Made by a program: the position numbers and the translations under genes
Source: Elusimicrobiota bacterium
GTDB taxonomy: Bacteria > Elusimicrobiota > Elusimicrobia > F11
Reading direction: 5' to 3'
Assembly (NCBI GenBank): GCA_046153645.1
Contig: JBJXGI010000105.1
Span: 1-19,191 of the forward strand
DNA: 19,191 nucleotides
Notes under the pieces: generated by a model
Told to the model about the DNA's origin: nothing
Databases searched by the model: none
The model's input: only the letters and a program-made list of their open reading frames with translations
In this document: positions 1 through 17,520 of the stretch, one piece after another
How positions within the stretch are numbered: the stretch's first letter is position 1
How the letters are laid out: each line of letters opens with the position of its first letter

Positions 1-310
1 GCATTCGAGAATTTGATGTTTGTCATCCAAAAAGACCCACACCCACACTTTTGTTCCCTCCGGACTGAGTTGAAGGTTGCTTTGAATATTCCACGTTTTT
101 CCTGACATGCCGGGAATGGGTTCGCCGTCTTTGATGAGAGGTTTGGGGTTCGATAAGGCACCGGTCGTAAGGTCTCGGTCGCATTCGAGAATTTGATCTT
201 TGCCATCCAAAACGACCCACACCCACCCTTTTGTTCCCTCCGGACTGAGTTGAAGGTCGCTGAGAATATTCCACGTTTTATCTGGCAGGCCGGGAATGGG
301 GTCGCCGTTT
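1..310 (-). repeat. 180-bp (60-aa) tandem coding repeat, beta-propeller-blade-like; probably continues beyond the left edge
   Basis: 1-120 vs 181-300 match at 109/120 nt. Unit reads PIPGLPDKTWNILSDLQLSPEGTKGWVWVVLDGKDQILECDRDLTTGALSNPKPLIKDGE. The LSPEGTK-W-W turn resembles lactonase/PD40 blades. Confidence 0.9.
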
Positions 311-3300
311 CTGGGAAAGCCTGAAATGGAATCGGCATTTTTGGCGGTGTAATTATCCCAGTTGAAGAGAGTGGGTGTTGCTGTAGCTTTTTCTTTTTCC
401 AACTGTGTTTCTGAAAACAATTCTCGAATTGTTTCTTTATCAATCATTTTCAGCGAAATCATTTCAATAAGCAGGGGAATGATGGTTTGGGCGAATTCTG
501 AGCCTAAAACAGAAGAAAGCCAATGTGAAATGTCTCCCAACTCAGGTTCTTGTGGTTTGGGGTAAGTTTTTCTGGCAATTTCATACAAGGATACTTTTGT
601 AATGGCGTCATTAAGCGCCACGGTGGCCGTTCCATTTCTTACAAGATCTAACGCTTTAATAATTACTGTGATCACATTAATTTCTTTTTTCAATGTGTCT
701 TGAATCGATTCAGGGTTAAAAGCATTGACCAGTTTTGAGATTTGTTCCGGTGTTGGTAGTGCATTTATTGTTTTATTGATCAACAAGTCAACCAACGCTG
801 GAGCTAGTTTTTTTAATGCTGTTGATATTTGAGAGTGAACATTTTCTGCTATTCCTTTTGCTTCAATTTCACTTTGAAGCGTAAATATGGTAAAGGCTTT
901 TGCTTGTTTTGAAACAGAATTATGTAATTGAGATTCTTTAATCCATTTTGTAACCGCTGCTTTTTGATCATTATCAGTTATGCCTAATTTGTCTATGATA
1001 AGTTTGGTGGTGTCTTCTTCTTTTAAAAGTTTTAAAGATTCATCGGTTAAAGCTTCTAAAACTTTATCTATGGTTTCATTTTTCTGTTCTGGAAATAAAT
1101 GTTTCCCATTTGTTTTTATTTCAGATTCAATTCCCGCAAATAGTTCTCCTAATGATTTCCCAAGATCGTCTGAATGGTTTAAAATTTTAGCGCGCCTTTT
1201 GGCGTAAAACTGCAATCTGGTTTGAGCCATGGGGCGAACGGCTTGAAGCGCAATACGCTCATGATCGGGGTCTGTGATAATCATTTCTCTAATATATTCG
1301 CTTTCTGCCTCTAATAAACGAAGCGGGTAGCGCCCGAAATTTTGAATCAAACGATGAATTTGCCGGTAATCGGGAGGAGAACCCAATTCACTTTTTCGGT
1401 AAGCTTCTAAAAGATTAAGCTGAGACTGTGCTAAAGCTGTGATGGTTTCTTCTGTGAGATCTGTCCATTCAAAGCCATTATCGATAGCTTCTTTTTTTAA
1501 ACGAATTTGATCAGTGAAGATAAGACTTTTTAGTTGTTTTAGGTTAAGCGGTCTACGTTGAAATATTCTCACACGTGAAGAAAATTCAGCGCTGAGCGCA
1601 TTAGATTGCGTGGAGCCTGTGGCAGGGTTTCCATCAAAAACCATGTGGAATTTTCGCCCTTGGGCTTTTGCGCGTGCTGTTCTGCCTCCAGCAAAAGTTT
1701 GAAAGCCATATTCCATAACATTGTTTAAAGCGGCCATGACACTTTGTTTGGCTTTGGTGAATTCAGAGAAATTAATGGGAAGATCATCTGTTAAAGCGGT
1801 TTCTAGTGGAGTTTTTGGAAAATGGCTTTTCGCATCTACAATTTGTTGAGTTCCCAAAATATCATCGCCCTGCATGCTTTCAGTGATTTGAGGGGGTTGA
1901 ACCAATGGTTGACGTAATAACCCTTTATATAAATAGAGAATAGATTCTGTTTTCCCGGTTCCTTTTTCGCCAATAACGGCATAGTGAAACCCTAAATAAA
2001 TGGTTTTGGCCATGTTGTAAAGGTCAAGCCGATTGGTAGGGGTATCTAAAAATTCAAGAACCTCTGCTTCACTTAAAGGAAGATTGCCTTGTTCAATTTC
2101 AAATTCAGGAACGCCATTTTGGTGATTCCCAAAAACAATGGTTCTTTTTTTAGTTGTAACGCCATTTTCTGTGATTGTTTTTATATTGAGCCTGGGCCAT
2201 TCGGGATCAATAGTAGGGTCTTCTTTTTGATCCAAATAATGTTTATTGAATTTATCGGCTCCTCCTAAAAATTGATTACATAATTCATCAAATTTAGTTT
2301 TCAATCCTGCCTGTTCTGATTCCTCTAGTAAAAATATGGGATAGTCCATCAATAAAATATCCCTCACATAGGCCAGGTCGTTGGGAAAGGCATAAATATG
2401 GTCGAGTGTTCGTTTGACTTGTCTTGGGTCCATGGGGGGAATTCCAGCATTTCGACCAATGTTGGAATTGGCATGCGCTGTGATGGCTGCCGCTATATTA
2501 AATAATTGAAGGGTGATTTTTTCGAAAATAGGGTTTTCTAGTTTTTTTGTGGCAGTTACTTGGTAATTTTTTTCTTCTTTTAAATTTTGGTTTCGAACGA
2601 GGATCTTTTCTTTTGAAGTGGTGGGATTTAACGCTGTTTGATTTGATAATGGAATTTCTAATTCTTTGTAAGTGATATTTGAATCAGAGCCTAAAATTTT
2701 AGCCATATACATTTTGGTTTGTTCTACAGCGGAAGGGTAAACAAACGGAACGCCACTTAACCGACTTAAAAAATCGGAAACATTGTCTAAACTTTGGCCG
2801 GCGTAAATTCCGTTGGGGGGGTTCCACAAGAAAAAGGCGCGGAAATGGTCTCCTGCTTTGATGACAGATCCATTTGGTAAGCGGAGTCGACGGTTTTGAT
2901 TAACAGTATTAAGTGCCGTGAGAGCACCAATGCGACGTGGTTTGGTGGCTTCATCTACCGCAATCCAATCGCCCACGCGGGCAGAGTCAGCATATTCACT
3001 TAAAAAAAGATCGGTGGTACCCGGTTTAAATAAACCAACAGTGGTTTTCCATAAAAGATCAATCTCGTTAATGTCTTCATGAAGACTCATGGTTCGAACG
3101 GGTTGCCGTAAAAAAGCGGCCAAAACATAAACGGCGGTGTTTTTCCCGGTGCTTTTATCACCTGTTAAAGCGAGATTTGTGGATGCGGGGTCGGGGCGGC
3201 TTAATACTTCCATCATATCGGCCAATTGATTAAGGAAAGTGGGCGTGAGTGTAATAATTCGTGATTGCCCTTCAACGGTGAGCCTGATTTGATTGGGAAT

Positions 3301-6300
3301 GAGTTTTCCATTTTTAAAGACTTGTTGAACTGAGGGAACATTTTTTTCGAATTTTTGAGTGGTTGTAATACTGCTATCAATTTTCCATCCCCAAACTTGG
3401 GGTGATATTAAAGAACCGGAGAAAATTTCTTTTCCACTCTCATCATTAACCTTGATATCGTTTTCATTGAGCACTAAACCCAATTCCGCAGGAGGGCCGT
3501 TACCCAACCCAGAAACCGTACCATCGGTTTGTTGTTCGTACCACACCCAGCGGTCTCCCAACCATTCTCCATAAATTTCTGGAATATTTCCTGGTCGTTT
3601 AATAGAGAGTCGGTGCCGTTCTAACTCCCATTCAATGCCTTTATGAGTAAAAAGAGTTTTATTGGTGTCGTTTCGAACAGGAAGCCTGACTTTTTGACCA
3701 AATTTATCTTGGAGGGTGAAATAGGTGATTTCACTTGTATTTTCAAATTCATAGGGAGGTTTTTCATCATTATTATTTTGTGCGTTACTTGAATTGGGGG
3801 GAAGCATATTTAGAGTAAGAACAAAAAGAATAGCAATAGTGATAAGTAAAAGAGACGGCGGTAAAAAGCCATTTGAAAAAAGCCCTGTGAGTGATCCAAA
3901 AATAAGAAGGGGTGCGGATAAATCATGCGCTTTACGCAGTTTTCTGCTGGCTTTTTTTATCATTTCAGTGGTGTTGTTTGTTAGTTCGGTACGGAGTTCA
4001 TCAGGGTTATTTGCGTGGGACCAAAAAACGTGGGGATTTGTATCTGTTTTGTACACCGCTTCAATTGTTTTTTTAACGGTGTCACCTCCACCTACGCCGG
4101 CGGTAAAATAAAAAATATTTTTATTAGAAGGATCGTCAAAAACATCTTGCACAGCTGGGCGAGCGGAAGCAACGTTTCCGTCTGTTCCGTGAATCACAAG
4201 GGTAATGGCGCGTTCGCCTTTGGTTCTTTCTTTTAAATCCTTGCTGGCTTCTTTAAGTGTGGGGGCATCGGCAGTGCCTGCTCGGTCAATACGACTGGAA
4301 AATAATTTCTCAATTGATTTTGCCAATTCTTTTTCTGTTATTTTTTGACCCGCTTTAAGAATGAGAATATTGGCATAAGCGGCGTAACCGCGAATTCCCA
4401 CATTTAAGTTGAGAAGTCCTCTCCATTTACCGCTTCGGTTCAGTTCAATAAAAGCCAGCGCTTGCGCTATAAAAGCGACAGCAGTTTGTACAAGGGGAGA
4501 ATCAAAATCTAATTTACCTTCATTAGTAAAAGGGCCGCCCATACTTCCGCTTACGTCTAAAACAAGTTCAAGGGCTACTGTTAAAGATTCGGGGGCTGAA
4601 GTTCTCTCTAAAGCTTTTCCATCTATAAAAACACCAACAACATTATCGGGGTCTAACTTTTTCCCGGAAATTTGGCGGCCTTCTTTTCCTTCGGTGATGA
4701 GGGCATCAAAATAAGGGCTCCATTTGTTTTTTAACGTTTGAGCCAGTGGCATGGCCGCTTGGCGAAGCTCCATCCAATGCTCCGCCCATTGGGGGCTTAC
4801 TTCAAGCCGTTCGGCCCAATCTTGTGCTGAGTTACCTTTGCCGGCGCCTCCACTACCTGGAGTGCCGGGTTTATTACCAAAATCCTCTAAAGTTTTTAAT
4901 AAGTCAGAATCTAAATCACCCTGCTGTGGCTCTCCTTTATTCGCTGAGTCTTTACCATCTTCACCATCGGGTTTCCCTGGGTTTGTTGTGGGAGATAAGG
5001 CTTCAGCTAATTGTTGTAATAATTCAGCGGCTTTATCTGCTTTATCTCCAACTTCATTTGCTTTATCTGAAATTTGATTGGATTGCCCATCGATTCCTTG
5101 AGATTTTGCCTGTGTTCCGGTTGTGTCTTCTCCCGTTCCTTTTTTGATTTCGTCTAATAAACTTTTTGCCGCTTCCGCAATTTGATCGCTCAATTGATTC
5201 GCCTGGTTCGCGGCATTCTCCATTTCAGTTGCATTTTGATTCGCATTGTTTGAACCCTTCATATTTTCCGTTGTTTTTTGAATACCTTGGGAAAATTGTT
5301 TGGTTTTATTAGCCATTAATTTGGCCAGAGCGGCTAATTGTTGTGCCAAGTCTTTCATTGTGTGGGCTGTTTTGGGGCGGTTTCCGTTCCCTTCTTGGGG
5401 TAATGCTTTGGCTTTCTCACCCAGTTGTTTTGCAAGTTCAGCCACTTTTTTGGCCAGGTCTTTTATATCGGGGACTTCATTCCCAAGGGCTTCGAGCATA
5501 TCTTTAAGATTTTGGAATTGTTGATTCATTTGTTGTTGTGCTTGTGAATTTTGATTGGCTTGTTGACCTGCCCCTCCCAATTGTTGGGCCATATTTTGTG
5601 CGGCTTTATCTAATTCATTTTGATCAGGGAAGTTTTTTTTGTCGGCTTCAAATATTTCTTTTAAAACAGGCCATATTTTTTCACGAATAATTTTCAAAGA
5701 TATCGAAATTTTTTCCTTCTCAACCAAGTCGGGGTTTCGATCTGGATCCATTTGATGTTTGTCTTGAACATTTTGGCGGGCTTGTAATTTTATTGTTTCT
5801 TGGTCCAATAATTCATTCCAATCATTCAAAGAATCTTTGATTTTTTGAGCGGAAATGTCACTAACTCGCGGGTCGGGTTCTCCTTTTCGAATTTGGAACA
5901 TAATTCCTTCTAAATACTGAATAATCCCTGGTTGTTTTTCCATGTAAGTTTTTGCGGCGGGGTTTTTAGGATTGGGGTATTTGTTTAAAACCATGCGCTC
6001 AAATGTTTCAATAAGCCCTGGTCTTTGTTTTATTAAATCTTTTTCAATGATGAGTGTTTGTGCCGTTCCCCAAAGCAGTTGAAATAAAGTATCAACATTT
6101 TCTTCATTGATGAAAGTGGTTTTCATTTGCTGAAGAACAACCCGCGCCTGCGTGAGCCCTTGAAGTTTGGTGATTTCTTCATCTGGGTTAAAAAAATCTC
6201 GAAGTGGGTATTCAAAAATGGCAGGGCGCCCTTCTAATTCAGGGGTGAAACGCCACTGAGGTTGTTTATCTTCGGGAGACTTTGCTTTCCATGGTTGAAC

Positions 6301-9300
6301 CAGTAATTTAGCTATCCCAGTCAAACTTTGGATTTCTTCAGTTAAATATTGAGTTAATTTTTTTTCCCGGGCTTTATCCATGAAAATAGGTTCAAAATTA
6401 TGTTCTGCATATAATGCCGCTAAACCTGAATTTGCGTACTCAATTAAATGTCGAAGAGCAGGGAATGGGTTTGAATCAGAAGTTTCTTGTTTTGAATACC
6501 AGTAGTGAAACACCATCCCAATAAAAGCGCCTAGTTTTCGCTCAGCATATTGTCGGCCTCTCATCCAAGTTAATGCGGCTTTTTCTTTACTTTCAAAATC
6601 AAAGTCACTCCAGTTTTCGATAATAAAACCTCCCACAATGAGTTGGAGGTTTTCAAAATCAGTTCCCGATGAAATATTTTTCCCTGGTTCGTTTGCTTGT
6701 GCAAATGCCTTGGCTCGTTCTAGTAAACGTACGCCTCCTATTTCTTCATGGATACTAAATCGTTCTGCGTCAGGTTTAACTGAACGTAACAATTCCAACA
6801 TAGAAACAGCCATCGGGGCGAATTCGCTTGATGATGGTAACTGCAATACATTTCGAAGACTAAGGCCATGGACAGTTTCATGCATAGCGATTTCTCGAGA
6901 CAAAGTTACGTCTTCTCTCGGTTGCATAGACACTTCAAGATGAGGTTTATTCAATGGAAGATGATCGGGAATTAATTTGTCGTTGGGTAGTGTTAAGCTT
7001 AAAGTTAATTGCGCAATCATTTTTTCAATAGGTTCATTGTTTTTTATCATGGATTCTATTTCATCTGGTATAAATATTGTGTTCCCATTAATGGTATTGA
7101 TCCGGAATTGATTTTTGAATGGTTTGATATCTTCTTTTTGATTTTCAGGAAATGAATCAAAAAGATTGTCAACGGCTTTTGTAATCTCTGAACGCATTTT
7201 TTCTGATAAACCTTCAGTATTTCCAGCGATCCAAATTTCACCGGCTCTTACGGGGGGGATTTTTGCCTCAGGGTGTGAGGGCCAAAGACGTTTTGCGTTA
7301 TCTTTATTGATCAATGTTTTTAATTCTTCAAAACTCCTCACTTCTATTCGAATTTTTTTGGCTAGCTCTATCGCACGTTCTACCGCTATTTGAAATGATT
7401 TATTGTCACGACTCATAATGTGCTGAAATAAACTTAAAGTTGTTTTACGATAATCTTCAATATCTTTAGTTATTTGTGCTTTTTCATCTGGACTGAGAGA
7501 AAGTCTAAAAGGAATAAATCGTTGCCAAGAAAAACCACGGAGTCCTTTGTAAGGAGGGCCTGTTTTTTGAAGCTTTTGATAAGCCAAAATAGCGGCTTGA
7601 ACGCCGTCTCCGAGTAATAGATTATAAAGCGCTATAACCAAGTTGACTGAGATAATCATTTCTAAAAAGAGCGACTCTCCCCATATGCGTTGTGCCAAAA
7701 GACCAAGACTGGCCAGAGCGATGTTAAGGGCAGGACCCGCCAAATAAATGCTCACGCGGGCATTTTCGTCTTTAAATTCAATGGGTTTGGCGCTCAGAAG
7801 TGAAAATATTTTTTTGACGATTGGTTGGTCGCTTTGAATCACTTCTCGAACATTGTTCCAGTGGGAGAAAAAATTGAGGGTCAAGCGACCTTGATCGCGG
7901 GGAGTACGATCTCCAAAGTAAATAGCGGCCCAGCCATGAGCCAATTCATGTAATACCACTGAAACAACAGCGATCATAATCCACAGGGGTGCATGAACTT
8001 TTAAAAAATGACTAAGGCTCATTGAAATTAAAATCAAAGATGTGTAAGCCACGCCCCATTTCAGTTCACGAATAAAGCGATTGTTTTGAGAAACATGATT
8101 GACCAATCGATAGAAAAGTTTGGGCGCGTCTTTCCTTAAAGTGGGAGCATCTTTCTGTGGTTCAATAGGACCAATACCTTCAGGAAGCCCTAAAAATAAT
8201 TTGCGACCTGAAAAAAGTTTTTGAAGTGTAGATTTTTCTTGAAGAAAATATCGAAGTGCTTCGGTTCCACTATTGGTTTTAATTTTTGAAATGCGCGGAG
8301 TCAGAATAGAAACAGTTGTTCCTTGTTTTTTGATGAGCTCAACAAGTCCTGCCGTATGAAACCCACCCACAAGCAAAGCTGACATTTTGTTTTGACCTAA
8401 ATTTTTCAACATGACGGGGTTTCGCTTTTCTGCCACGTGATAAAAATTTTCAAAGGATTTAAGCGTCATTCCCGAAATTTTTAATCGGGAATCTAGATCC
8501 CCGATTAAGACATTCGGGGATGACGAATACCTTTTATACTGTTCCCATTCTTCTGGCGTCAAAGAAAACGTGATCAACTTTTTTAATAAACCAAACCAGA
8601 GGTTTTTACTGACAAAATCTTTTTCTTTTTTATTCGAAATAATCTGCTTAATAAAACTTTGTTCTATCTTAAAAAGGTTTGACATCACTTCTGTCGGTTC
8701 AATCAAATCAACTAACAGAATATATTGAATAAATGACTGGAAAGAGGGAGTTTTTGAAAGCGACAAATGATATTTTGAAAAAAGTGCTTGGAGAAACTCA
8801 TAAAGCGCGCTTTGTTGAATTTTATGGGTTTGAAGGGCTTGAGTGACTTCTAATAAAGTCTTTTGGTCATTGGTTGATAGAACAGATGTTAGCTTCGCTA
8901 AAATAATATCTCTTTCCTGCTTGGCTTTTTGAAAGGGAATTCTTTTTTCAAGTTGATAAGCCGATAAAAAAGTTTCAACGCTTAAAGGAACATCATCAGC
9001 CGGTATTTTTTTTATTAATGTGGAGAGATAATCTCCCATATTAATTTGACCATGATCAAAACTTTTTCGCAGTGATAAAAAAGATTGTATGGGAGTAGAA
9101 TATTGAGATGCTTCTTTTGAAAGATCTGTTTCTATCAGATTTATTTCATGTTGAACTTCTTTTTCATTTTCCATTGCCTTTCGGTAGGTATCAACATGGG
9201 CTGAATATAAATTCGCTGATTCAACACCTTTAATGATGAGTTTCTTGAGAAGCAAGTGAGGAAGAGTAAGCCCCGCTAGTGAAGCTGCACCAATACGACC

Positions 9301-9693
9301 TTCGTTTAGCAGGTTTTTTGCTGCGTTTAATATCGTGGTCGGGGAAGCCGCTTTTCGATAAGGGGTGTAATTAAACGGGCCATAAGACCCTTCTATTCCC
9401 AATGTCAAGGTTGGGTTTTCTTCTGTCAATATTTTAAGTGACTCTGCCAAATTTTCTTGAGCTTCTTTATTAAGATGAATATCTTCAAGTAGATAGATGT
9501 GAGGACGCCCCGGAAGGGGGGAATCTCCTCTCATTCGGACAAATTTTTTCATTCTTAAGGCTGAGGTTTTTGCCGCGTTAATATAAGCGAAATTATCAAT
9601 TCGCCGTGTTAAAAATGACTGGTTTTCTTGACCAGCAAAGACACTTTGAAGTGGAATAATAAGAGAGATAAAAACGGCTATTAACCTTTTCAT
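1..9693 (-). CDS. Giant multidomain membrane protein (>=3231 aa, C-terminus runs off the window): SP / TIKI-like / M50 S2P / HExxH zincin / vWA / 2x AAA_5 / beta-propeller repeats
   Basis: Manual translation finds no stop from ATG at 9693 (MKRLIAVFISLIIPLQSVFAGQ..., signal-peptide-like) to position 1. The nearest upstream in-frame stop is at 9730-9732. Motifs in the same frame: HELAH, AGPALN, HETVH, DVSGSM, GDKSTGKN, WIAVDE, GEKGTGKT. Confidence 0.93.
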   Translation of the reverse strand, partial: MKRLIAVFISLIIPLQSVFAGQENQSFLTRRIDNFAYINAAKTSALRMKKFVRMRGDSPLPGRPHIYLLEDIHLNKEAQENLAESLKILTEENPTLTLGIEGSYGPFNYTPYRKAASPTTILNAAKNLLNEGRIGAASLAGLTLPHLLLKKLIIKGVESANLYSAHVDTYRKAMENEKEVQHEINLIETDLSKEASQYSTPIQSFLSLRKSFDHGQINMGDYLSTLIKKIPADDVPLSVETFLSAYQLEKRIPFQKAKQERDIILAKLTSVLSTNDQKTLLEVTQALQTHKIQQSALYEFLQALFSKYHLSLSKTPSFQSFIQYILLVDLIEPTEVMSNLFKIEQSFIKQIISNKKEKDFVSKNLWFGLLKKLITFSLTPEEWEQYKRYSSSPNVLIGDLDSRLKISGMTLKSFENFYHVAEKRNPVMLKNLGQNKMSALLVGGFHTAGLVELIKKQGTTVSILTPRISKIKTNSGTEALRYFLQEKSTLQKLFSGRKLFLGLPEGIGPIEPQKDAPTLRKDAPKLFYRLVNHVSQNNRFIRELKWGVAYTSLILISMSLSHFLKVHAPLWIMIAVVSVVLHELAHGWAAIYFGDRTPRDQGRLTLNFFSHWNNVREVIQSDQPIVKKIFSLLSAKPIEFKDENARVSIYLAGPALNIALASLGLLAQRIWGESLFLEMIISVNLVIALYNLLLGDGVQAAILAYQKLQKTGPPYKGLRGFSWQRFIPFRLSLSPDEKAQITKDIEDYRKTTLSLFQHIMSRDNKSFQIAVERAIELAKKIRIEVRSFEELKTLINKDNAKRLWPSHPEAKIPPVRAGEIWIAGNTEGLSEKMRSEITKAVDNLFDSFPENQKEDIKPFKNQFRINTINGNTIFIPDEIESMIKNNEPIEKMIAQLTLSLTLPNDKLIPDHLPLNKPHLEVSMQPREDVTLSREIAMHETVHGLSLRNVLQLPSSSEFAPMAVSMLELLRSVKPDAERFSIHEEIGGVRLLERAKAFAQANEPGKNISSGTDFENLQLIVGGFIIENWSDFDFESKEKAALTWMRGRQYAERKLGAFIGMVFHYWYSKQETSDSNPFPALRHLIEYANSGLAALYAEHNFEPIFMDKAREKKLTQYLTEEIQSLTGIAKLLVQPWKAKSPEDKQPQWRFTPELEGRPAIFEYPLRDFFNPDEEITKLQGLTQARVVLQQMKTTFINEENVDTLFQLLWGTAQTLIIEKDLIKQRPGLIETFERMVLNKYPNPKNPAAKTYMEKQPGIIQYLEGIMFQIRKGEPDPRVSDISAQKIKDSLNDWNELLDQETIKLQARQNVQDKHQMDPDRNPDLVEKEKISISLKIIREKIWPVLKEIFEADKKNFPDQNELDKAAQNMAQQLGGAGQQANQNSQAQQQMNQQFQNLKDMLEALGNEVPDIKDLAKKVAELAKQLGEKAKALPQEGNGNRPKTAHTMKDLAQQLAALAKLMANKTKQFSQGIQKTTENMKGSNNANQNATEMENAANQANQLSDQIAEAAKSLLDEIKKGTGEDTTGTQAKSQGIDGQSNQISDKANEVGDKADKAAELLQQLAEALSPTTNPGKPDGEDGKDSANKGEPQQGDLDSDLLKTLEDFGNKPGTPGSGGAGKGNSAQDWAERLEVSPQWAEHWMELRQAAMPLAQTLKNKWSPYFDALITEGKEGRQISGKKLDPDNVVGVFIDGKALERTSAPESLTVALELVLDVSGSMGGPFTNEGKLDFDSPLVQTAVAFIAQALAFIELNRSGKWRGLLNLNVGIRGYAAYANILILKAGQKITEKELAKSIEKLFSSRIDRAGTADAPTLKEASKDLKERTKGERAITLVIHGTDGNVASARPAVQDVFDDPSNKNIFYFTAGVGGGDTVKKTIEAVYKTDTNPHVFWSHANNPDELRTELTNNTTEMIKKASRKLRKAHDLSAPLLIFGSLTGLFSNGFLPPSLLLITIAILFVLTLNMLPPNSSNAQNNNDEKPPYEFENTSEITYFTLQDKFGQKVRLPVRNDTNKTLFTHKGIEWELERHRLSIKRPGNIPEIYGEWLGDRWVWYEQQTDGTVSGLGNGPPAELGLVLNENDIKVNDESGKEIFSGSLISPQVWGWKIDSSITTTQKFEKNVPSVQQVFKNGKLIPNQIRLTVEGQSRIITLTPTFLNQLADMMEVLSRPDPASTNLALTGDKSTGKNTAVYVLAAFLRQPVRTMSLHEDINEIDLLWKTTVGLFKPGTTDLFLSEYADSARVGDWIAVDEATKPRRIGALTALNTVNQNRRLRLPNGSVIKAGDHFRAFFLWNPPNGIYAGQSLDNVSDFLSRLSGVPFVYPSAVEQTKMYMAKILGSDSNITYKELEIPLSNQTALNPTTSKEKILVRNQNLKEEKNYQVTATKKLENPIFEKITLQLFNIAAAITAHANSNIGRNAGIPPMDPRQVKRTLDHIYAFPNDLAYVRDILLMDYPIFLLEESEQAGLKTKFDELCNQFLGGADKFNKHYLDQKEDPTIDPEWPRLNIKTITENGVTTKKRTIVFGNHQNGVPEFEIEQGNLPLSEAEVLEFLDTPTNRLDLYNMAKTIYLGFHYAVIGEKGTGKTESILYLYKGLLRQPLVQPPQITESMQGDDILGTQQIVDAKSHFPKTPLETALTDDLPINFSEFTKAKQSVMAALNNVMEYGFQTFAGGRTARAKAQGRKFHMVFDGNPATGSTQSNALSAEFSSRVRIFQRRPLNLKQLKSLIFTDQIRLKKEAIDNGFEWTDLTEETITALAQSQLNLLEAYRKSELGSPPDYRQIHRLIQNFGRYPLRLLEAESEYIREMIITDPDHERIALQAVRPMAQTRLQFYAKRRAKILNHSDDLGKSLGELFAGIESEIKTNGKHLFPEQKNETIDKVLEALTDESLKLLKEEDTTKLIIDKLGITDNDQKAAVTKWIKESQLHNSVSKQAKAFTIFTLQSEIEAKGIAENVHSQISTALKKLAPALVDLLINKTINALPTPEQISKLVNAFNPESIQDTLKKEINVITVIIKALDLVRNGTATVALNDAITKVSLYEIARKTYPKPQEPELGDISHWLSSVLGSEFAQTIIPLLIEMISLKMIDKETIRELFSETQLEKEKATATPTLFNWDNYTAKNADSISGFPRNGDPIPGLPDKTWNILSDLQLSPEGTKGWVWVVLDGKDQILECDRDLTTGALSNPKPLIKDGEPIPGMSGKTWNIQSNLQLSPEGTKVWVWVFLDDKHQILEC
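1320..2000 (-). other. Second AAA+ domain (MoxR/AAA_5-like) of the giant protein, degenerate Walker B
   Basis: Walker A GEKGTGKT (1948-1971); Walker B position PINFSE (1762-1779) followed by AALNNVMEYG; sensor-1 FHMVFDGNP; LSAEFSSR Arg finger (1573-1587). Confidence 0.8.
2400..3200 (-). other. First AAA+ domain (MoxR/AAA_5, dynein-related) of the giant protein
   Basis: Walker A GDKSTGKN (3139-3162); Walker B WIAVDE (2950-2967); HFRAFFLWNPPNGIYAG sensor-1 region; DFLSR Arg finger (2761-2775). Confidence 0.85.
3990..4800 (-). other. von Willebrand factor A (MIDAS) domain with CobT/midasin-like pre-vWA segment
   Basis: LVLDVSGSM (DxSxS within 4540-4557), GT (4273-4278) and VIHGTDG (TDG 4177-4185) supply all MIDAS positions. 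Preceded by SGKKLDPD. Confidence 0.85.
6720..6960 (-). other. Putative zincin-type metallopeptidase motif within the giant protein
   Basis: REIAMHETVHGL (HETVH 6868-6882, aa ~938), with downstream Glu candidates (SSSEFAPM). Confidence 0.5.
7570..8060 (-). other. Site-2 protease (peptidase M50) intramembrane domain within the giant protein
   Basis: Hydrophobic helix ending in VLHELAHGWAAIYFGDRTPRDQGRLTLN (HELAH 7936-7950), AKP, IYLAGPALN (7723-7740), VNLVIALYNLLLGDG (7603-7623). Confidence 0.88.
8290..9500 (-). other. N-terminal domain resembling the TIKI/TraB/ChaN/EreA fold, split by a helical insert
   Basis: IYLLEDIHLNKEAQ...LGIEG, KGVESANLY, FYHVAEKRNPVM and ALLVGGFHTAG (GGFH 8356-8367) follow the H...E...RN...GxxH pattern of that superfamily. 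Fold assignment is inference. Confidence 0.5.
8464..8525. repeat. 62-bp palindromic element (GTCATTCCCG-type, dRS3/Rickettsia-RPE-like) inside the giant CDS
   Basis: Two 31-nt arms centred on TCTAGA pair at 26/31 positions. Each arm is itself a hairpin (ATTCCCGA..TCGGGAAT; ATCCCCGA..TCGGGGAT). Confidence 0.8.
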
Positions 9694-9701
9694 GAACTTT
9701 G

Positions 9702-9735
9702 AGTATAGATGGTGGGCATTAAGATTTCCTTAAGA
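9702..9735 (-). promoter_or_regulatory. Probable promoter of the giant gene: -10 TATACT plus TCTTAA-N5-TCTTAA direct repeat in place of -35
   Basis: TATACT (9702-9707, minus) lies 8 nt upstream of the ATG. No Shine-Dalgarno. TTAAGA at 9719-9724 and 9730-9735, 11-bp period. Confidence 0.55.
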
Positions 9736-9797
9736 AAAGGTAACAAAGTTGTTAAATCTTTCACTGTCCCGGATCCAATAAATGGTTTTGTGGGTTT

Positions 9798-9906: not shown

Positions 9907-12090
9907 GTGCGAATGGACATACCCTTTCCTTTTCAAATGCGAAGTGTGTTCTTACTCTGGGTTCTTCTTTGTTCTATGATCAACCTGGTGTTAGGAGGAG
10001 TTGTTTTATTTGATAGCTCCGGACGCAAAGTAAATCGATTATTTTTTGTTCTTTGTCTTTTTCTTTCCTCTTTTGGCGTAACTCTCATTGGTCTTAACTT
10101 CAGTAACAATCCTTCTACTACTCTCCTTTGGTCTCGTCTTTATAATGCTTCTTTACTTTTTTGTTCGCCGCTCTTCTATCACTTTGTCATGGGGACGTTG
10201 GGAAATTCATTTAAAACACATGAATCCAAGCTGGCCGATTTTTTTGATCGTTTAAAACAACTGGCTTACGTTTTTTGTACTGGCTGGTTGGTGTTGATAT
10301 TTATGGGAATTGTTCCGATTTCTTTAAATAAGGACTTGAGTATCTATTTACCTGTCATTCAAAACCAAGAATGGGTTGGATTGTTTTTATTCGGAATTCT
10401 ATTGGGGACTGCTTTTGTGGCGTTATTGAGGCAATATTTGGTTTCACATGACCCGACACACCGAAGTCGAATGCTTTTCATCTTAATTGGAACAGGAACC
10501 ATGATGACAGCCGGAATTGTCAGTTCGATGTTTTTTTATATTCCTCACTTCCAAAACTTCGTGTTTCTCATCCCGCTCAGTCATTTTTTATCTACCATTG
10601 GTCTTGCTTTTATTGCCTATTGCTTAACCACGAGTCATCTGTACCACATCTCTGAACTCATAAGAAAAACATTGGCTTTTTTTGTTATGACAACTATTTT
10701 ATTAACGGTTTTTGGTGGTACTCATTTCTTGGCGGCTAAACTTTTGGTGCCCTATATTCCGCGCAGCGATTTTTTTGCCCTTGGGATGGCTTCCATTATT
10801 ATGGCTCTTCTTTTTCACCCACTTCGGTTTAGAGTTCAGAACATGGTTGATAAAGTTTTCTTCAGGCAGAGTTATGATCAAATGCAACGCTTGCGTCAAC
10901 TTTCTCGACGTGTTTTATCTTCAGCAGATCGTGATGAACTCTTAAATATTTTATTTTCTAGTTTAAAAGGAATTGGTTTTAATTCTGTCAGTCTCCTTTT
11001 GAAAGATCCACAAAAACCAATTTTTCATATCAAAAAAGGGGTCGGCCTTAACCCCAATTCAGAAGGGTTTTTTCTGAAAACAGATTCACTTCTTATTCAG
11101 CATGTTCGTGAAGAAAAAGAAGAAGTTATTCGAGATGAAGTAACCAGGAGAATTTTGACTGACTGGGAACGTCAATCAATCTCTGATGAAATGGAAATTC
11201 TTCAGTCTGAAATTGCTTTTCCCTTGTTTTCTACTCGAAGACGGGCCTTGTTTGGTGTTATTACACTTGGAAACTCAGAACTTGGATATTCTTCCTATAA
11301 AGGGCGAAACGTATTTTGGTTGAAATCCGTTATTGATAATGCGGGAATTATGTTGGATAACTTTTACCATCAAGAACTTGCCAATGCGCTCATCCCTTAT
11401 GTTGGCAAAGCATGGGCAACTGAAATGCGCCGAAATAAAGAAGGTTTTAGGGAACGCTTGAGTGGACATCGAACCTGGGTTTCTGTTCTTATGGTAGACA
11501 TTAGGCATTTTACGCCTATGTCGGCGCGACTTGATCCTAAAGATGTTGTTGAACTTTTAAAAGAATTTCGCTCTCGCGTGGCGCCGGTGGTTTACCGTTA
11601 TCAAGGAACAATTGATAAATTTATTGGGGATGCCATTATGATTGTTTTTGGTTTACCTATTCTTCCGCCTTTACCCAATCAAGATAAAAACGCCGTTGAG
11701 TGCGCGCTAGAAATCATGAGAGAAATTGAAGCACTGAATATAAAACGGTATGAAGAATCAAAAAAGGAACCTATTTCAATTGGAATTGGAGTTTCTTCTG
11801 GCGAAGTGATAGCGGGAAATGTGGATTCTGGTGATCGTGTTGAATATACTGTCATTGGTGATGCCGCTAATATGGTCGCCCGTTTAGAAGATTTAGCAGG
11901 TGACAACCAAATATTATGTTCGCCAGCAACTTTTGAAAAGGTTCGCGAACATGTTATTGTGAATCCTTGGAAGCCGCGATACCTAACCGGATTTGAAGAA
12001 CAACTGGTCGTTTATGAACTGCTTGGCATGGTTGATGGTAACCAAACGACAGCCAGAACTGATGATCAATACCTCGCCGCTAACCAATAA
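9907..12090 (+). CDS. Membrane-bound class III adenylate cyclase (multi-TM N-terminal sensor, GAF-like middle, cyclase domain)
   Basis: Many hydrophobic helices in the first ~300 aa. Cyclase motifs VLMVDIRHFT, IDKFIGDAIM, GIGVSSGEVIAGN, EYTVIGDAANMVARLE. True start may be ATG 9913 or 9937. Confidence 0.9.
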   Translation: MRMDIPFPFQMRSVFLLWVLLCSMINLVLGGVVLFDSSGRKVNRLFFVLCLFLSSFGVTLIGLNFSNNPSTTLLWSRLYNASLLFCSPLFYHFVMGTLGNSFKTHESKLADFFDRLKQLAYVFCTGWLVLIFMGIVPISLNKDLSIYLPVIQNQEWVGLFLFGILLGTAFVALLRQYLVSHDPTHRSRMLFILIGTGTMMTAGIVSSMFFYIPHFQNFVFLIPLSHFLSTIGLAFIAYCLTTSHLYHISELIRKTLAFFVMTTILLTVFGGTHFLAAKLLVPYIPRSDFFALGMASIIMALLFHPLRFRVQNMVDKVFFRQSYDQMQRLRQLSRRVLSSADRDELLNILFSSLKGIGFNSVSLLLKDPQKPIFHIKKGVGLNPNSEGFFLKTDSLLIQHVREEKEEVIRDEVTRRILTDWERQSISDEMEILQSEIAFPLFSTRRRALFGVITLGNSELGYSSYKGRNVFWLKSVIDNAGIMLDNFYHQELANALIPYVGKAWATEMRRNKEGFRERLSGHRTWVSVLMVDIRHFTPMSARLDPKDVVELLKEFRSRVAPVVYRYQGTIDKFIGDAIMIVFGLPILPPLPNQDKNAVECALEIMREIEALNIKRYEESKKEPISIGIGVSSGEVIAGNVDSGDRVEYTVIGDAANMVARLEDLAGDNQILCSPATFEKVREHVIVNPWKPRYLTGFEEQLVVYELLGMVDGNQTTARTDDQYLAANQ

Positions 12091-16611: not shown

Positions 16612-17520
16612 ATGGGAATACTTCTCGATAAAAATTCAAAACTTATCACACAAGGAATTACAGGTTCTGCTGGTTCATTTCATACGCGGCTTTGTAAAGA
16701 ATATGGAACAAATGTTGTGGGCGGAGTGACACCTGGAAAAGGGGGCTCTGATTTTGAGGGAATCCCTATTTTTGATACCGTCAAAGAAGCTGTTAAAGAA
16801 AAAAACGCCAATGTATCCATGTTGTTTGTTCCTGCTCCTTTTGCGGCTGATGCTATTTTAGAAGCCATGGAAGCGGGCATTAAGCTTGTTGTTGCTATCA
16901 CGGAAGGCATTCCCGTGACGGATATGGTGATGGTTAAAAAATATCTAGAAAAGTGGAATAAAGACCAATCATCAGAAAATAAATGCCGACTTATTGGTCC
17001 TAATTGTCCTGGCCTTATTACGGTGGACGTCTGTAAGGTGGGAATTATGCCGGGTTCTATTCACAAAAAAGGAAATATTGGTATTGTTTCTCGGTCTGGG
17101 ACGTTAACTTATGAAGCGGTGTGGCAACTTTCCGAATTGGGTATCGGACAATCTTCTGTGGTTGGAATTGGCGGTGACCCGGTCAATGGGACAAATTTTA
17201 TTGACGTACTAGAGCTTTTTGAAAAAGATCCTGAAACCTCCGCTGTTGTTATGCTTGGTGAAATTGGAGGAAGAGCCGAAGAAGACGCTTCTGAATACTT
17301 TAAAAAGAATATGAGTAAACCTGTGTTTTCTTTTATTGCTGGAATTTCGGCGCCACCTGGAAAAAGAATGGGGCATGCGGGAGCCATTGTTGAAGGTGGG
17401 TCTGGTAAAGCAGAAGACAAAATTGTCACTCTTAGAAAAAATGGCGTTATTGTGACAGAATCACCCGCTACCATTGGAAAAACCGTTAAGGACAATTTAT
17501 TTGCTGAAAAAAAATATTAG
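16612..17520 (+). CDS. sucD: Succinyl-CoA synthetase alpha subunit
   Basis: [50 protein letters not shown] (phospho-His). Confidence 0.96.

What the first reader, a model, noticed from the sequence alone, without database searches (positions are those of the whole stretch)
1..9693. Hidden >3200-aa gene fusing up to three peptidase-type modules with a vWA/AAA+ machine and a variable beta-propeller
Seen: one stop-free frame of 9693 nt, absent from the ORF track, carrying in order a signal peptide, a TIKI-like domain, an M50 site-2 protease, an HExxH motif, a Q-rich coil, vWA, a TM hairpin, two AAA+ domains and tandem blades. Established: MoxR-type AAA+ ATPases usually work with separately encoded vWA partners, and some such loci include peptidases and beta-propeller proteins; M50 proteases are normally small stand-alone membrane proteins. 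Inference: this is a single-chain, membrane-anchored recognition/remodelling/proteolysis system, possibly for biological conflict, predation or host contact, and possibly a self-processed polyprotein. I know of no described protein with this architecture but cannot search to confirm.
Basis: partly seen in the sequence, partly recalled or inferred. Interest (0 to 1): 0.92.

Follow-up and report, generated by a model that had tools for sequence, protein, structure and literature searches.

The report
Giant membrane protein with MoxR-vWA machine
This is a real gene for a membrane-tethered protein of more than 4,000 residues, one of about 45 giant relatives in the same small genome, that joins protease-like parts, a metal-dependent gripping domain and a two-module ATP motor of the dynein/midasin type in one chain; its function is still unknown.

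Summary
The stop-free frame is real. It lies on the minus strand (9693 to 1) and gives 3,231 aa. It begins at an ATG with a signal peptide and is cut at its C-terminus by the contig end. A second contig (C105) very probably carries the rest: more 60-aa repeats, a WD40 propeller, a membrane segment and a tail. The whole protein would then be at least 4,092 aa.

- two MoxR-class AAA_5 modules (firm, by sequence and fold);
- a vWA domain with a full MIDAS motif (firm by profile);
- a conserved HExxH-x14-E domain (motif only);
- an M50-like intramembrane module (at Pfam's threshold);
- a Tiki-like head (supported for the paralogue family only).

The repeats inside the window match no known blade family.

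The gene is not unique. It is one of 47 head-bearing ORFs that take up 12% of this genome. This family has not been described in print; earlier reports of this scan noted it in at least 16 genomes. The block HExxH domain, vWA, AAA_5 pair recurs in the same order in other giant proteins, in one of them with three AAA pairs.

Best reading, by inference only: a membrane-proximal, ATP-driven remodelling or proteolysis machine.

The parts
9718..9753 (-). Upstream element shared by the family: AACAACTTTGTTACC followed by TTAAGGAAATCTTAAT, about 25-60 nt before the start codon. It is probably a promoter or operator.
   Evidence: Sequence read. The pattern TTAAN-N6-8-TTAAN lies in the last 120 nt upstream of 20 of 42 paralogues, against 0.034 expected per 120 nt genome-wide. 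Its function was not tested.
9631..9693 (-). Start codon (ATG at 9693-9691) and signal-peptide-like N-terminus, aa 1-21 (MKRLIAVFISLIIPLQSVFAG).
   Evidence: hydropathy 1.92. Paralogues carry similar N-termini ending ..VFA/..FAH. No signal-peptide predictor was available.
8104..9624 (-). Conserved family 'head', aa 24-530, presumably exported. The invariant residues are D71, H73, A78, Q79, E101, G102, R424, G443, G444 and H446.
   Evidence: Alignment of 40 paralogous heads. PF04187 (ChaN/Tiki superfamily) is hit by 18 of 40 heads, but not by this one. There are 9 own-genome PF04187 matches, all in head-bearing ORFs. The fold was not predicted here.
7579..8058 (-). M50-like intramembrane module, aa 546-705. 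It has 3-4 hydrophobic helices, with HELAH (582-586) in one and N690-x4-D695-G in the last.
   Evidence: Pfam PF02163 gives 25.4 bits (cut-off 27.2), or 25.7 bits and 30.3 summed in the own-genome scan. Hydropathy. No solved relative was found by sequence.
5734..7476 (-). Conserved, mostly helical domain, aa 740-1320, with H938-E-x-x-H942 and E957. It is a putative zinc metallopeptidase of no named family.
   Evidence: HExxH and the downstream E are invariant in 7 of 7 relatives. The G112 relative hits Peptidase_M78 weakly (E 0.0042, below the cut-off). There is no Pfam hit for this protein and no solved relative by profile. The AF2 model was too poor to search.
4774..5706 (-). Low-complexity A/Q/K-rich helical (coiled-coil-like) linker, aa about 1330-1640.
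   Evidence: Composition A 12.6%, Q 11.3%, K 10.6%. The AF2 model shows long helices at low confidence.
3934..4626 (-). vWA domain, aa 1690-1920, with a complete MIDAS motif (D1713-x-S1715-x-S1717, T1807, D1838).
   Evidence: Invariant D, S, S, T and D in the alignment of 6 sequences. The profile hits solved vWA domains: collagen VI at 6e-7, TRAP at 6.7e-7, the midasin MIDAS domain at 4.1e-4. As a single sequence it hits TRAP at 0.006. Pfam for this sequence alone gives only 0.16.
3802..3933 (-). Hydrophobic hairpin, aa 1921-1964: two stretches of about 17 residues joined by a PP turn, with a K/R-rich stretch before it.
   Evidence: Hydropathy 2.44. The topology is inferred.
3304..3786 (-). 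Beta-rich domain, aa 1970-2130, that precedes the AAA pair.
   Evidence: AF2 strands at low pLDDT. P0090 conserves it together with AAA1: query 1990-2330 matches at E 6e-61.
2266..3279 (-). AAA_5 module 1 with its lid, aa about 2139-2476. Walker A is GDKSTGKN (K2184, N2185), Walker B is D2247-E2248, and N2291, R2311 and R2424 are conserved.
   Evidence: Pfam AAA_5 E 6.8e-21. AF2 pLDDT is mostly 80-92. Fold matches: CbbQ2 6l1q_A at Z 21.3, rmsd 2.5, 260 of 267 aligned; NorQ at Z 20.8. The GKN Walker A is shared by most relatives. Residues.
1105..2076 (-). AAA_5 module 2 with its lid, aa about 2540-2863. Walker A is GEKGTGKT (K2581). The Walker B position reads S2643-E2644 instead of D-E.
   Evidence: Fold match to NorQ 9qh6_B at Z 17.5, 253 of 257 aligned. 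Most homologues keep D-E at this position. Residues.
334..1104 (-). Helical region of unknown family, aa about 2864-3120.
   Evidence: No Pfam family at E<=0.01. AF2 helices at falling confidence at its start.
1..309 (-). Two copies (the second cut off) of an exact 60-aa tandem repeat, aa 3129-3231. The contig ends inside the array.
   Evidence: The only other place in the genome with this repeat is the end of contig C105, at 67-86% identity. The same repeat type follows the AAA pair in P0090.

Best explanation
The ORF is a genuine gene for a multi-anchored inner-membrane protein of at least 4,092 aa. It belongs to a very large family of giant Elusimicrobiota/Omnitrophota proteins that has not been described in print. 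Family members share an upstream DNA element, a signal peptide, an exported Tiki/ChaN-like head and an alanine-ended tail, and they differ in the 'cargo' between head and tail.

Here the cargo is a fused MoxR/vWA machine. In order it has an HExxH-x14-E (metallopeptidase-like) domain, a coiled coil, a vWA domain with a complete MIDAS site, a membrane hairpin, a beta domain, two MoxR-class AAA+ modules packed like neighbouring modules of dynein or midasin, a helical region, 60-aa repeats and a WD40 propeller.

Proposed working (inferred):
- The head faces the periplasm, and everything behind the M50-like membrane module faces the cytoplasm.
- Three chains bring their AAA pairs together into a six-module ring. 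Relatives that carry three pairs in one chain suggest this.
- The MIDAS site and the WD40/repeat region hold a target protein at the membrane.
- ATP turnover, mainly in module 1, pulls on or twists the target.
- The built-in HExxH domain and/or the M50-like module cut the target or the chain itself.

Shown here: the frame, the family membership, the domain identities and their conserved order. Inferred: the topology, the oligomer, the substrate and any proteolysis.
For: Reality of the gene:
- Open frame of 3,231 codons; chance of this about 1e-94.
- Short contigs from 4 DNA runs of one study are identical to the window, with no joints or indels. They cover 29 of 30 bins in run X1.

Family:
- 47 head-bearing ORFs of up to 10,189 aa, together 106,481 aa or 12.2% of the genome.
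- Nearly all complete members printed end in alanine (my count from that list: 31 of about 33).
- The C105 frame ends ..LVAA, like three paralogues.
- The upstream element is present in 20 of 42 paralogues, against 0.034 expected per 120 nt.
- The head is found in 39 of 121 sampled genomes of the phylum.

Machine:
- AAA_5 at E 6.8e-21. AF2 model with pLDDT 71.8 and pTM 0.70.
- Module 1 matches CbbQ2 at Z 21.3 and NorQ at Z 20.8. Module 2 matches NorQ at Z 17.5.
- The pair overlays two consecutive modules of dynein (Z 20.3, 519 residues aligned) and of Rea1/midasin (Z 17.9, 448 aligned). Foldseek's top hits are dynein motors at E 7.6e-18.
- The vWA profile hits solved vWA domains at 6e-7 and the midasin MIDAS domain at 4.1e-4.

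Conserved order:
- HExxH domain, vWA, AAA pair occur in the same order in P0005, P0022, P0035 and the G112 ORF. P0028 and P0039 carry the HExxH domain and the AAA part in that order, and alignment A2 shows the MIDAS D-x-S-x-S in both.
- P0005 has three AAA pairs.
- P0090 keeps the beta domain, the AAA pair and the 60-aa repeats together.
- WD40 or a propeller shares a chain with AAA_5 in 3 of the 12 relatives scanned.

Precedents in print:
- MoxR rings act through vWA partners: the VWA finger of NorD enters the NorQ pore (PMC13036017, abstract read).
- A MoxR-vWA-peptidase operon was predicted to be a membrane-proximal degradation system (PMC3495828, passages read).
Against: - No function was tested, and no RNA or protein evidence exists.
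- The HExxH domain and the vWA domain could not be folded with confidence (pLDDT 46). The peptidase reading of aa 740-1320 therefore rests on an invariant motif plus one sub-threshold M78 hit in a relative.
- The M50 call sits at Pfam's threshold and lacks the prolines of the second M50 motif.
- Module 2 has S-E where most relatives have the Walker B D-E. Module 1 has N in place of the Walker A S/T. ATPase activity is therefore not assured.
- The topology rests only on hydropathy and the positive-inside rule. The two hydrophobic 'hairpins' are too short to be certain membrane spans.
- The join to C105 is inferred from repeat similarity and a family-type tail. No read or contig spans it.
- The neighbouring genes are housekeeping genes and name no substrate.
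Confidence: 0.5

Rival explanations
1. It is a single-chain version of a conflict (defence or attack) system of the MoxR-vWA ternary type. The WD40 propeller and the near-identical but varying 60-aa repeats sense an invader or a neighbour. The AAA/vWA core switches the system on, and the peptidase-like modules are the effectors.
For: Kaur et al. 2020 (PMC7159879, passages read) describe MoxR-vWA ternary systems, including a beta-propeller type that works near the membrane and has variable regions. Variable cargo on a constant chassis, and many paralogues per genome, are hallmarks that they list for conflict systems. The repeat copies differ at a few positions only. Two relatives hit PF20030 bpMoxR below its cut-off.
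Against: This protein does not hit PF20030 at E<=1. In the published propeller type the propeller follows the vWA domain in a separate vWA protein; here the WD40 follows the AAA pair. No classical effector (TIR, caspase, nuclease) was found. No mobile-element or defence genes lie beside it. PADLOC was not searched.
Confidence: 0.2
2. It is an assembly chaperone of the NorQD/CbbQO/chelatase kind. The AAA ring and the vWA domain insert a metal or cofactor into, or reactivate, an envelope enzyme complex. The HExxH motifs bind metal rather than cut protein.
For: The best structural matches of both AAA modules are CbbQ and NorQ, which work with vWA partners on metal insertion or enzyme reactivation (PMC13036017 and PMC9976466, abstracts seen). 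The MIDAS site is complete.
Against: No candidate client operon (nor, cbb, cox, chelatase) lies nearby. Known systems of this kind are small two-gene pairs, not parts of a 45-member giant family. The WD40, the repeats and the exported head have no counterpart in them.
Confidence: 0.15
3. It is a polyprotein precursor. The intramembrane M50-like module and/or the HExxH domain cut the chain, which releases the periplasmic head and several cytoplasmic modules that then act separately.
For: In the family the position right behind the head is often taken by an intramembrane-protease-like module. PF02517 (CPBP) passes its cut-off there in 2 paralogues, similar motifs are visible in others, and here the module is M50-like. 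This fits a conserved cleavage step. The constant alanine C-terminus could be a processing or degradation mark.
Against: No cleavage sites are known, and no proteomic data were available. A regex count of CPBP motifs behind the head gave only 3 of 42 (control 1 of 169). This reading does not exclude the main one.
Confidence: 0.13
4. It is an artefact: a chimeric assembly or a decaying, unexpressed ORF.
For: The genome is a fragmented metagenome assembly of 105 contigs. No contig spans the whole ORF. No RNA run is on record.
Against: The frame is open over 9.7 kb. Independent proteins from other genomes show the same domain order. Contigs from four runs are identical to it and show no joints. 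The catalytic and MIDAS residues are conserved.
Confidence: 0.02

Closest known systems
MoxR-class AAA+ ATPases with vWA partners (CbbQ-CbbO, NorQ-NorD, RavA-ViaA)
   Same: Both AAA modules have the MoxR fold: Z 21.3 to CbbQ2 and Z 20.8 and 17.5 to NorQ, and both are in Pfam AAA_5. A vWA domain with a full MIDAS site accompanies them.
   Different: The known systems are two small separate proteins in which the ATPase forms a homohexamer. Here two unlike AAA modules and the vWA domain lie in one chain of more than 4,000 aa. A membrane hairpin separates the vWA from the AAA modules, and peptidase-like, repeat and WD40 parts are added. Module 1 has a GKN Walker A and module 2 has an S-E Walker B.
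Midasin (Rea1/Mdn1) and dynein: AAA_5 modules concatenated in one chain, in midasin with a MIDAS domain
   Same: The predicted pair overlays two consecutive ring modules of dynein (Z 20.3, 519 residues aligned) and of Rea1 (Z 17.9, 448 aligned). The vWA profile hits the midasin MIDAS domain at E 4.1e-4. Relative P0005 carries three such pairs, which makes six modules.
   Different: This protein has two modules, not six. Its vWA lies before the AAA modules, not after them. It is bacterial and membrane-tethered, and it has no linker or stalk. Zhang and Aravind 2012 (PMC3495828, passages read) place the origin of the six-module chain early in eukaryotes.
MoxR-vWA-peptidase (YebA-like transglutaminase-like) operon, predicted to be a membrane-proximal degradation system (PMC3495828)
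   Same: It has the same three functions side by side at the membrane: a MoxR ATPase, a vWA substrate binder and a peptidase.
   Different: That system is made of separate genes and its peptidase is a cysteine (TGL) type. Here the parts are fused and the candidate peptidases are HExxH types. Neither system has been tested biochemically, as far as the passages I read go.
MoxR-vWA ternary conflict systems, beta-propeller type (Kaur et al. 2020, PMC7159879)
   Same: MoxR, vWA and a beta-propeller occur together, the system works near the membrane, and variable parts sit on a constant core.
   Different: PF20030 (bpMoxR) does not match. The propeller lies after the AAA pair rather than fused behind the vWA. 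This is one chain instead of three genes, and it sits in a different phylum from those listed in the passage read.
Site-2 proteases (Peptidase M50: RseP, SpoIVFB, MjS2P)
   Same: HExxH lies inside a TM helix, a later TM helix ends in N-x4-D-G, and the Pfam score is at the threshold.
   Different: The second motif lacks the prolines of the usual NxxPxxxxDG (motif recalled, not from a call). There is no PDZ or CBS domain. The module is embedded in a giant protein. The genome has its own ordinary M50 protease on contig C6, scoring 208 bits.
Tiki-headed giant modular membrane proteins of Elusimicrobiota/Omnitrophota (known only from earlier notes of this scan), and the published giant proteins of Omnitrophota (bioRxiv 10.1101/2023.11.21.568195 and 10.64898/2026.06.07.730766)
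   Same: Shared head, upstream element and alanine tail. The build with a signal peptide plus many TM anchors matches what the 2026 preprint reports for long Omnitrophota proteins (passages read).
   Different: Neither preprint mentions a Tiki head, vWA or M50: 0 occurrences of these words. AAA_5 appears only in a supplementary figure legend of the 2023 preprint. Their supplements were not seen. The cargo of this gene is specific to it.

Membership tests
MoxR-class AAA+ (Pfam AAA_5) | Sequence match above the curated cut-off | tested here: met
   PF07728 at 75.2 bits against a cut-off of 22, in 2 stretches.
MoxR-class AAA+ (Pfam AAA_5) | MoxR fold (core plus lid) resembling solved MoxR ATPases | tested here: met
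   Module 1: 6l1q_A at Z 21.3, rmsd 2.5, 260 of 267 aligned. Module 2: 9qh6_B at Z 17.5, 253 of 257 aligned. The model has pLDDT 71.8.
MoxR-class AAA+ (Pfam AAA_5) | Intact Walker A (GxxxxGK[ST]) and Walker B (hhhhDE) motifs | tested here: inconclusive
   Module 1 has GDKSTGKN (N in place of S/T, shared by most relatives) with D-E intact. Module 2 has GEKGTGKT but S-E in place of D-E.
MoxR-class AAA+ (Pfam AAA_5) | Hexameric ring | not testable with these tools
   A trimer of pairs is inferred from relatives that carry three pairs. Three copies exceed the size limit of the complex tool.
vWA domain with MIDAS | D-x-S-x-S ... T ... D metal site | tested here: met
   D1713, S1715, S1717, T1807 and D1838 are present. 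D, S, S, T and D are invariant in 6 of 6 sequences.
vWA domain with MIDAS | Significant similarity to known vWA domains | tested here: met
   The profile of 6 sequences hits collagen VI vWA at 6e-7, TRAP at 6.7e-7 and 4rck at 2.7e-6. Pfam on this sequence alone gives only 0.16. The fold could not be tested (pLDDT below 40).
Peptidase M50 (site-2 protease) | Pfam PF02163 above the gathering score | tested here: inconclusive
   25.4 and 25.7 bits against 27.2, or 30.3 when neighbouring stretches are summed. Only profile positions 4-106/144 of 221 are matched.
Peptidase M50 (site-2 protease) | HExxH within a transmembrane helix | tested here: met
   HELAH at 582-586 lies inside the hydrophobic segment 566-591.
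Peptidase M50 (site-2 protease) | Second motif NxxPxxxxDG in a later TM helix (motif recalled) | tested here: inconclusive
   The sequence reads N690-LLLG-D695-G. N and DG are present, the prolines are absent and the spacing is shorter.
Tiki / TraB / ChaN / erythromycin-esterase superfamily | Match to a family model (PF04187 or PF05139) | tested here: inconclusive
   This head has no hit. PF04187 is hit by 18 of 40 paralogous heads at E<=1 (best 2.1e-6) and PF05139 by 1 of 40. In the own-genome scan 2 of 9 matches pass the cut-off only after summing.
Tiki / TraB / ChaN / erythromycin-esterase superfamily | Conserved His/Glu/Arg/His set in two GxxH-type motifs (recalled) | tested here: inconclusive
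   D71, H73, E101, R424 and GGxH446 are invariant in 40 of 40 heads. Their equivalence to the superfamily's residues was not shown by alignment or fold here.
Tiki / TraB / ChaN / erythromycin-esterase superfamily | Fold | not tested
The profile found no solved relative by sequence.
MoxR-vWA-beta-propeller ternary system (Kaur et al. 2020) | bpMoxR-type ATPase (PF20030) | tested here: not met
   PF20030 is not among the families reported at E<=1 for this protein. It appears only below its cut-off in relatives P0016 and P0029.
MoxR-vWA-beta-propeller ternary system (Kaur et al. 2020) | vWA protein with a roughly four-bladed propeller directly C-terminal to the vWA; three separate genes | tested here: not met
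   Behind the vWA come a membrane hairpin and the AAA pair. The WD40 (6 Pfam stretches) lies far downstream on C105, and everything is in one frame.
Midasin/dynein-type concatenated AAA ring | Six AAA modules in one chain | tested here: not met
   There are two modules. Relative P0005 has six.
Midasin/dynein-type concatenated AAA ring | Neighbouring modules packed as in a ring | tested here: met
   The pair aligns over 448-547 residues to consecutive modules of dynein and Rea1, at Z 17.4-20.3.
Tiki-headed giant family (unpublished; defined in this scan) | Head, upstream element and alanine-ended tail | tested here: met
   The head is 22-30% identical to 39 paralogues. The element lies at 9718-9753. 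The tail ..LVAA is on C105, if the join is right.
WD40 beta-propeller | WD40 repeats above the Pfam cut-off | tested here: met
   This holds only for the C105 continuation: PF00400 at 1.3e-80 in 6 stretches, aa 229-594 of that frame. The 60-aa repeats inside the window have no match.

The most novel reading that the evidence does not exclude
The two-module MoxR pair is a natural building block of single-chain AAA rings. It occurs once here and in many relatives, and three times, making six modules with a vWA/MIDAS domain, in relatives such as P0005. If so, bacteria built midasin/dynein-like concatenated rings stepwise from pairs. This protein would trimerise into a membrane-tethered ring that pulls MIDAS- or WD40-bound proteins into its own metalloprotease. 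That would make it an ATP-dependent membrane protease unrelated to FtsH, wired to an exported hydrolase head.
Probability: 0.2. Interest if true: 0.8.

Novelty: new variant of a known kind. Interest (0 to 1): 0.6.

Why it matters
- MoxR-vWA systems are widespread but poorly understood. A natural fusion that fixes the order peptidase-like domain, vWA, AAA pair, propeller in one chain says which parts work together. It also offers a single construct for biochemistry.
- AAA_5 pairs that occur once or three times per chain in bacteria bear on how six-module rings such as midasin and dynein arose. Passages of PMC3495828 place that step in early eukaryotes.
- A 2.6-Mb genome spends 12% of its DNA on about 45 such giants. 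Their role is therefore likely central to the biology of these uncultured bacteria.

Tried and rejected
- Word-indexed homologue searches found almost nothing. The whole-length search found only two weak head matches. The searches with aa 740-1320 and with the AAA pair found nothing.
- ESM Atlas on aa 720-1300: best score 0.88, with recognition below the mark, so uninformative.
- Search against solved sequences: no hit for the M50-like region, the head profile or the HExxH-domain profile.
- The AF2 model of aa 740-1920 with a 7-row alignment was too poor (mean pLDDT 46.3). Its VIA-wide search returned only helical bundles on the coiled-coil part. The folds of the HExxH domain and the vWA therefore remain untested.
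- Complex prediction, AAA pair against vWA domain: no verdict (score 0.00). This is no evidence either way.
- Sequencing runs: no RNA holder was listed. The DNA contigs are short and none bridges C34 to C105.
- An iterative HMM search for the CPBP-like module among the 42 post-head segments did not grow beyond 2. A motif regex found 3 of 42 against 1 of 169 control windows. The 'CPBP-like in many paralogues' impression is therefore not quantified.
- The tail of the C105 frame has no phmmer match to other paralogues' tails. Only the last ~15 residues look alike.
- I rejected the reading that the window repeats are WD40 blades. They have a 60-aa period and no Pfam hit.
- PADLOC and PHROGs were not searched.

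Full report
**The observation**

The window equals one whole contig, C34, of a 2.63-Mb assembly of 105 contigs at 39% GC. On the minus strand a frame runs from an ATG at 9693 to base 1 without a stop. It gives 3,231 residues and its 3' end is open. At this base composition the chance of no stop in 3,231 codons is about 1e-94.

The N-terminus is complete, and the contig end cuts the C-terminus. Contigs from four DNA runs of a single study (labelled biofilter metagenome) lie on the ORF. The pieces listed show no differing letters, and no joints or indels were reported. They touch 29 of 30 bins in the best run. They are short and none spans the gene. One variant contig at bases 82-147 is most simply another copy of the terminal repeat.

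**The rest of the gene**

The last 103 residues are two copies of an exact 60-aa repeat. The only other place in the genome with this repeat is the end of contig C105, at 67-86% identity. There an open frame of 846 aa continues in this order:
- three more repeat copies;
- a WD40 propeller (PF00400 E 1.3e-80, six stretches);
- a hydrophobic segment;
- a tail ending ..LEDALVAA.

The two contig ends do not overlap, and at least 15 residues are missing between them. The protein is therefore at least 3,231 + 15 + 846 = 4,092 aa.

Two results support the join. The C105 tail looks like the tails of three paralogues, which end ..VLVAA or ..IQVAA. A protein from another sample, P0090 (3,611 aa), carries the same beta domain plus AAA pair (E 6e-61 and 3e-62), followed by seven matches to the same repeat type. 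No read bridges the gap, so the join remains an inference.

**Family context**

The first ~500 residues have 47 matches in the ORFs of this genome. Most sit in frames of 1,300 to 10,189 aa, and together these ORFs hold 106,481 aa, or 12.2% of the genome. An alignment of 40 heads has ten invariant residues: D71, H73, A78, Q79, E101, G102, R424, G443, G444 and H446.

- Nearly all of the complete members end in alanine. My count from the list printed is 31 of about 33.
- The pattern TTAAN-N6-8-TTAAN lies within 120 nt upstream of 20 of 42 members, against 0.034 expected. In the window it sits at 9733-9718, preceded by AACAACTTTGTTACC.
- The head profile finds matches in 39 of 121 sampled genomes of the phylum (20 of 53 genera), in frames of up to 12,656 aa.
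- Source names of relatives are Endomicrobiia, Elusimicrobiota, Omnitrophota and Ratteibacteria. One weak head match is labelled Chlamydiota. I did not determine the taxonomy of this genome myself.
- Earlier notes of this scan describe the same 'Tiki-headed giant' family in at least 16 genomes, this one included. I re-derived the head, the element and the tail independently.

On the Tiki label, the sequence evidence is only partial. PF04187 (ChaN/Tiki superfamily) is hit by 18 of 40 heads at E<=1 (best 2.1e-6), but not by the window's head. In the own-genome scan all 9 matches lie in head-bearing ORFs, and 2 pass the cut-off only after summing. I did not fold the head.

**The module behind the head**

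Residues 546-705 hold three or four hydrophobic helices. HELAH (582-586) lies in one of them and N690-x4-D695-G ends the last. Pfam Peptidase_M50 scores 25.4-25.7 bits against a cut-off of 27.2, or 30.3 bits summed. The genome's ordinary M50 protease, on contig C6, scores 208 bits.

Among the paralogues only this gene has HExxH directly behind the head; C54 has a similar HEGAH further on. Two paralogues carry a CPBP/Rce1-like module (PF02517, over its cut-off) at that position, and others show similar motifs by eye. My attempts to count these failed. The idea that the family needs some intramembrane protease there is therefore a lead, not a result.

**The cargo**

The exhaustive HMMER search with aa 1641-2840 found 87 proteins at E<=1e-3, of which 36 were at E<=1e-10. 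All of them match AAA module 1 (aa about 2130-2340), module 2 (about 2390-2840), or both.

The pair is a unit:
- it occurs alone in shorter proteins;
- it occurs with WD40 or a propeller in 3 of the 12 relatives scanned;
- it occurs three times in P0005, which gives six modules.

P0005 is 5,936 aa and its source names it 'AAA family ATPase [Endomicrobiia]'. It also has the head, the HExxH region and the coil plus vWA in the same order as here. The order HExxH domain, vWA, AAA pair is also seen in P0022, P0035 and an ORF of at least 4,803 aa in a same-class genome, G112. P0028 and P0039 carry the HExxH domain and the AAA part in that order, and alignment A2 shows the MIDAS D-x-S-x-S in both.

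AAA pair. The AF2 model of aa 1970-2900, built on a 20-row alignment, has pLDDT 71.8 and pTM 0.70, and both AAA modules reach 80-93.
- Module 1 with its lid matches CbbQ2 (Z 21.3, rmsd 2.5, 260 of 267 aligned) and NorQ (Z 20.8).
- Module 2 matches NorQ (Z 17.5, 253 of 257 aligned).
- The pair overlays consecutive modules of dynein (Z 20.3, 519 aligned) and of Rea1/midasin (Z 17.9 and 17.4).
- Foldseek's best hits are dynein motors at E 7.6e-18.
- Module 1 has Walker A GDKSTGKN, a GKN that most relatives share. Its D2247-E2248, N2291, R2311 and R2424 are conserved.
- Module 2 has GEKGTGKT but S2643-E2644 where most relatives have D-E. If either module is the active motor, module 1 is the more likely one.

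vWA. D1713, S1715, S1717, T1807 and D1838 form a complete MIDAS set. It is invariant in six aligned sequences. The profile hits solved vWA domains at 6e-7 and the midasin MIDAS domain at 4.1e-4.

HExxH domain. H938, E939, H942 and E957 are invariant in 7 of 7 relatives. No Pfam family and no solved sequence matches it. The G112 copy touches Peptidase_M78 at E 0.0042, below the cut-off. The AF2 model of aa 740-1920 was too poor to use (pLDDT 46).

**How it probably works (inferred)**

Topology. By hydropathy and the positive-inside rule, the head lies outside. Three helices of the M50-like module would place both of its motifs near the cytoplasmic face, and everything after aa 705 would then be cytoplasmic. 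That location is required for the ATPase modules. The segment 1921-1964 and the one on C105 would act as hairpin anchors.

Mechanism. MoxR rings act on targets through vWA partners. In NorQD a finger of the vWA domain enters the ring pore (PMC13036017, abstract). A MoxR-vWA-peptidase operon has been predicted to be a membrane-proximal degradation system (PMC3495828, passages read). On this basis I read the protein as a fused machine of that type:
- three chains form a six-module ring;
- the MIDAS site and the WD40/repeat region hold a target;
- ATP turnover remodels the target;
- the HExxH domain and/or the M50-like module cleave it.

I put this at about 0.5. The rivals are a fused conflict system of the Kaur et al. 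type (0.2), a cofactor-insertion chaperone (0.15), a self-processed polyprotein (0.13, and not exclusive of the main reading) and an artefact (0.02). The neighbouring genes give no hint. They are a membrane cyclase, a DUF2064 protein, a two-subunit 2-oxoacid:ferredoxin oxidoreductase of the POR family and the two succinyl-CoA ligase subunits.

**Comparison and novelty**

The parts are known kinds. What I could not find in print is:
- their fusion in one chain;
- the two-module AAA_5 unit;
- its placement in a Tiki-headed giant.

I read passages of the two giant-protein preprints. They have 0 occurrences of Tiki, vWA or M50. Their supplements were not seen and could list such architectures.

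Within this scan the family and a six-module relative in this same genome were already noted. This gene therefore adds three things rather than a wholly new find: the conserved HExxH-vWA-AAA-pair block, the pair-as-unit pattern and the M50-like substitution. I rate it a new variant of a known kind, with interest 0.6.

Noticed in passing
whole genome G000: 47 ORFs with the same ~450-aa head, up to 10,189 aa long, take 12.2% of a 2.63-Mb genome. Many of them run off contig ends, so the giant genes are a main cause of the assembly breaks.
   Followed up: partly
window 9718-9753 (minus strand) and upstream of 20 of 42 paralogues: A shared upstream motif, TTAAG-N6-7-CTTAAG-like, often preceded by ACAAnTTTGTTnC. 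It suggests one dedicated regulator or sigma factor for the whole family.
   Followed up: partly
C-termini of the paralogues; L040 (C105) 5472-5480: Nearly all complete family members end in alanine (..VAA..NA..QA..HA). The reason is unknown; it could be a sorting, processing or degradation signal.
   Followed up: partly
G000 C29:50357-50659 and C19:22810-23127: Two paralogues carry a CPBP/Rce1-like intramembrane-protease module (PF02517, over its cut-off) directly behind the head, where this gene has its M50-like module. Several others show E-E...H...HxxxN-like motifs by eye.
   Followed up: partly
G000 C23:17490-18779: A head is split over two short ORFs of 235 and 204 aa. This is probably a frameshifted or decaying family member.
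   Followed up: no
P0090, aa 2260-2318: P0090 is the closest relative of the AAA pair. It has no head, HExxH domain or vWA, but it carries an RNA polymerase alpha C-terminal-like domain (E 4.4e-6) among the 60-aa repeats, and it ends ..IIAAA.
   Followed up: no
window 82-147, run X1: One contig differs from the window at 10 positions within 66 bases. It is most simply a different copy of the 60-aa (180-nt) repeat, or a strain variant of the array.
   Followed up: no
window 9907-12090 (+): A polytopic membrane protein with a C-terminal adenylate/guanylate cyclase domain (PF00211, 2.4e-19) is transcribed divergently from the giant gene. The two share the 213-nt spacer that holds the family element.
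   Followed up: no
window 17474-18406 (+) and 18403-19191 (-): Two ORFs have no Pfam match at E<=1e-4. The first is an exported-looking protein of 310 aa. The second is a protein with a hydrophobic stretch near its middle and a Lys/Glu/Gln-rich C-terminal half, and it runs off the right end of the contig.
   Followed up: no
relatives P0006, P0014, P0016: AAA_5 pairs recur with WD40 propellers in other long proteins: four AAA_5 modules alternating with WD40 blocks in P0006, and six AAA_5 plus a propeller plus VWA in P0016. The AAA-propeller link is therefore wider than this family.
   Followed up: no
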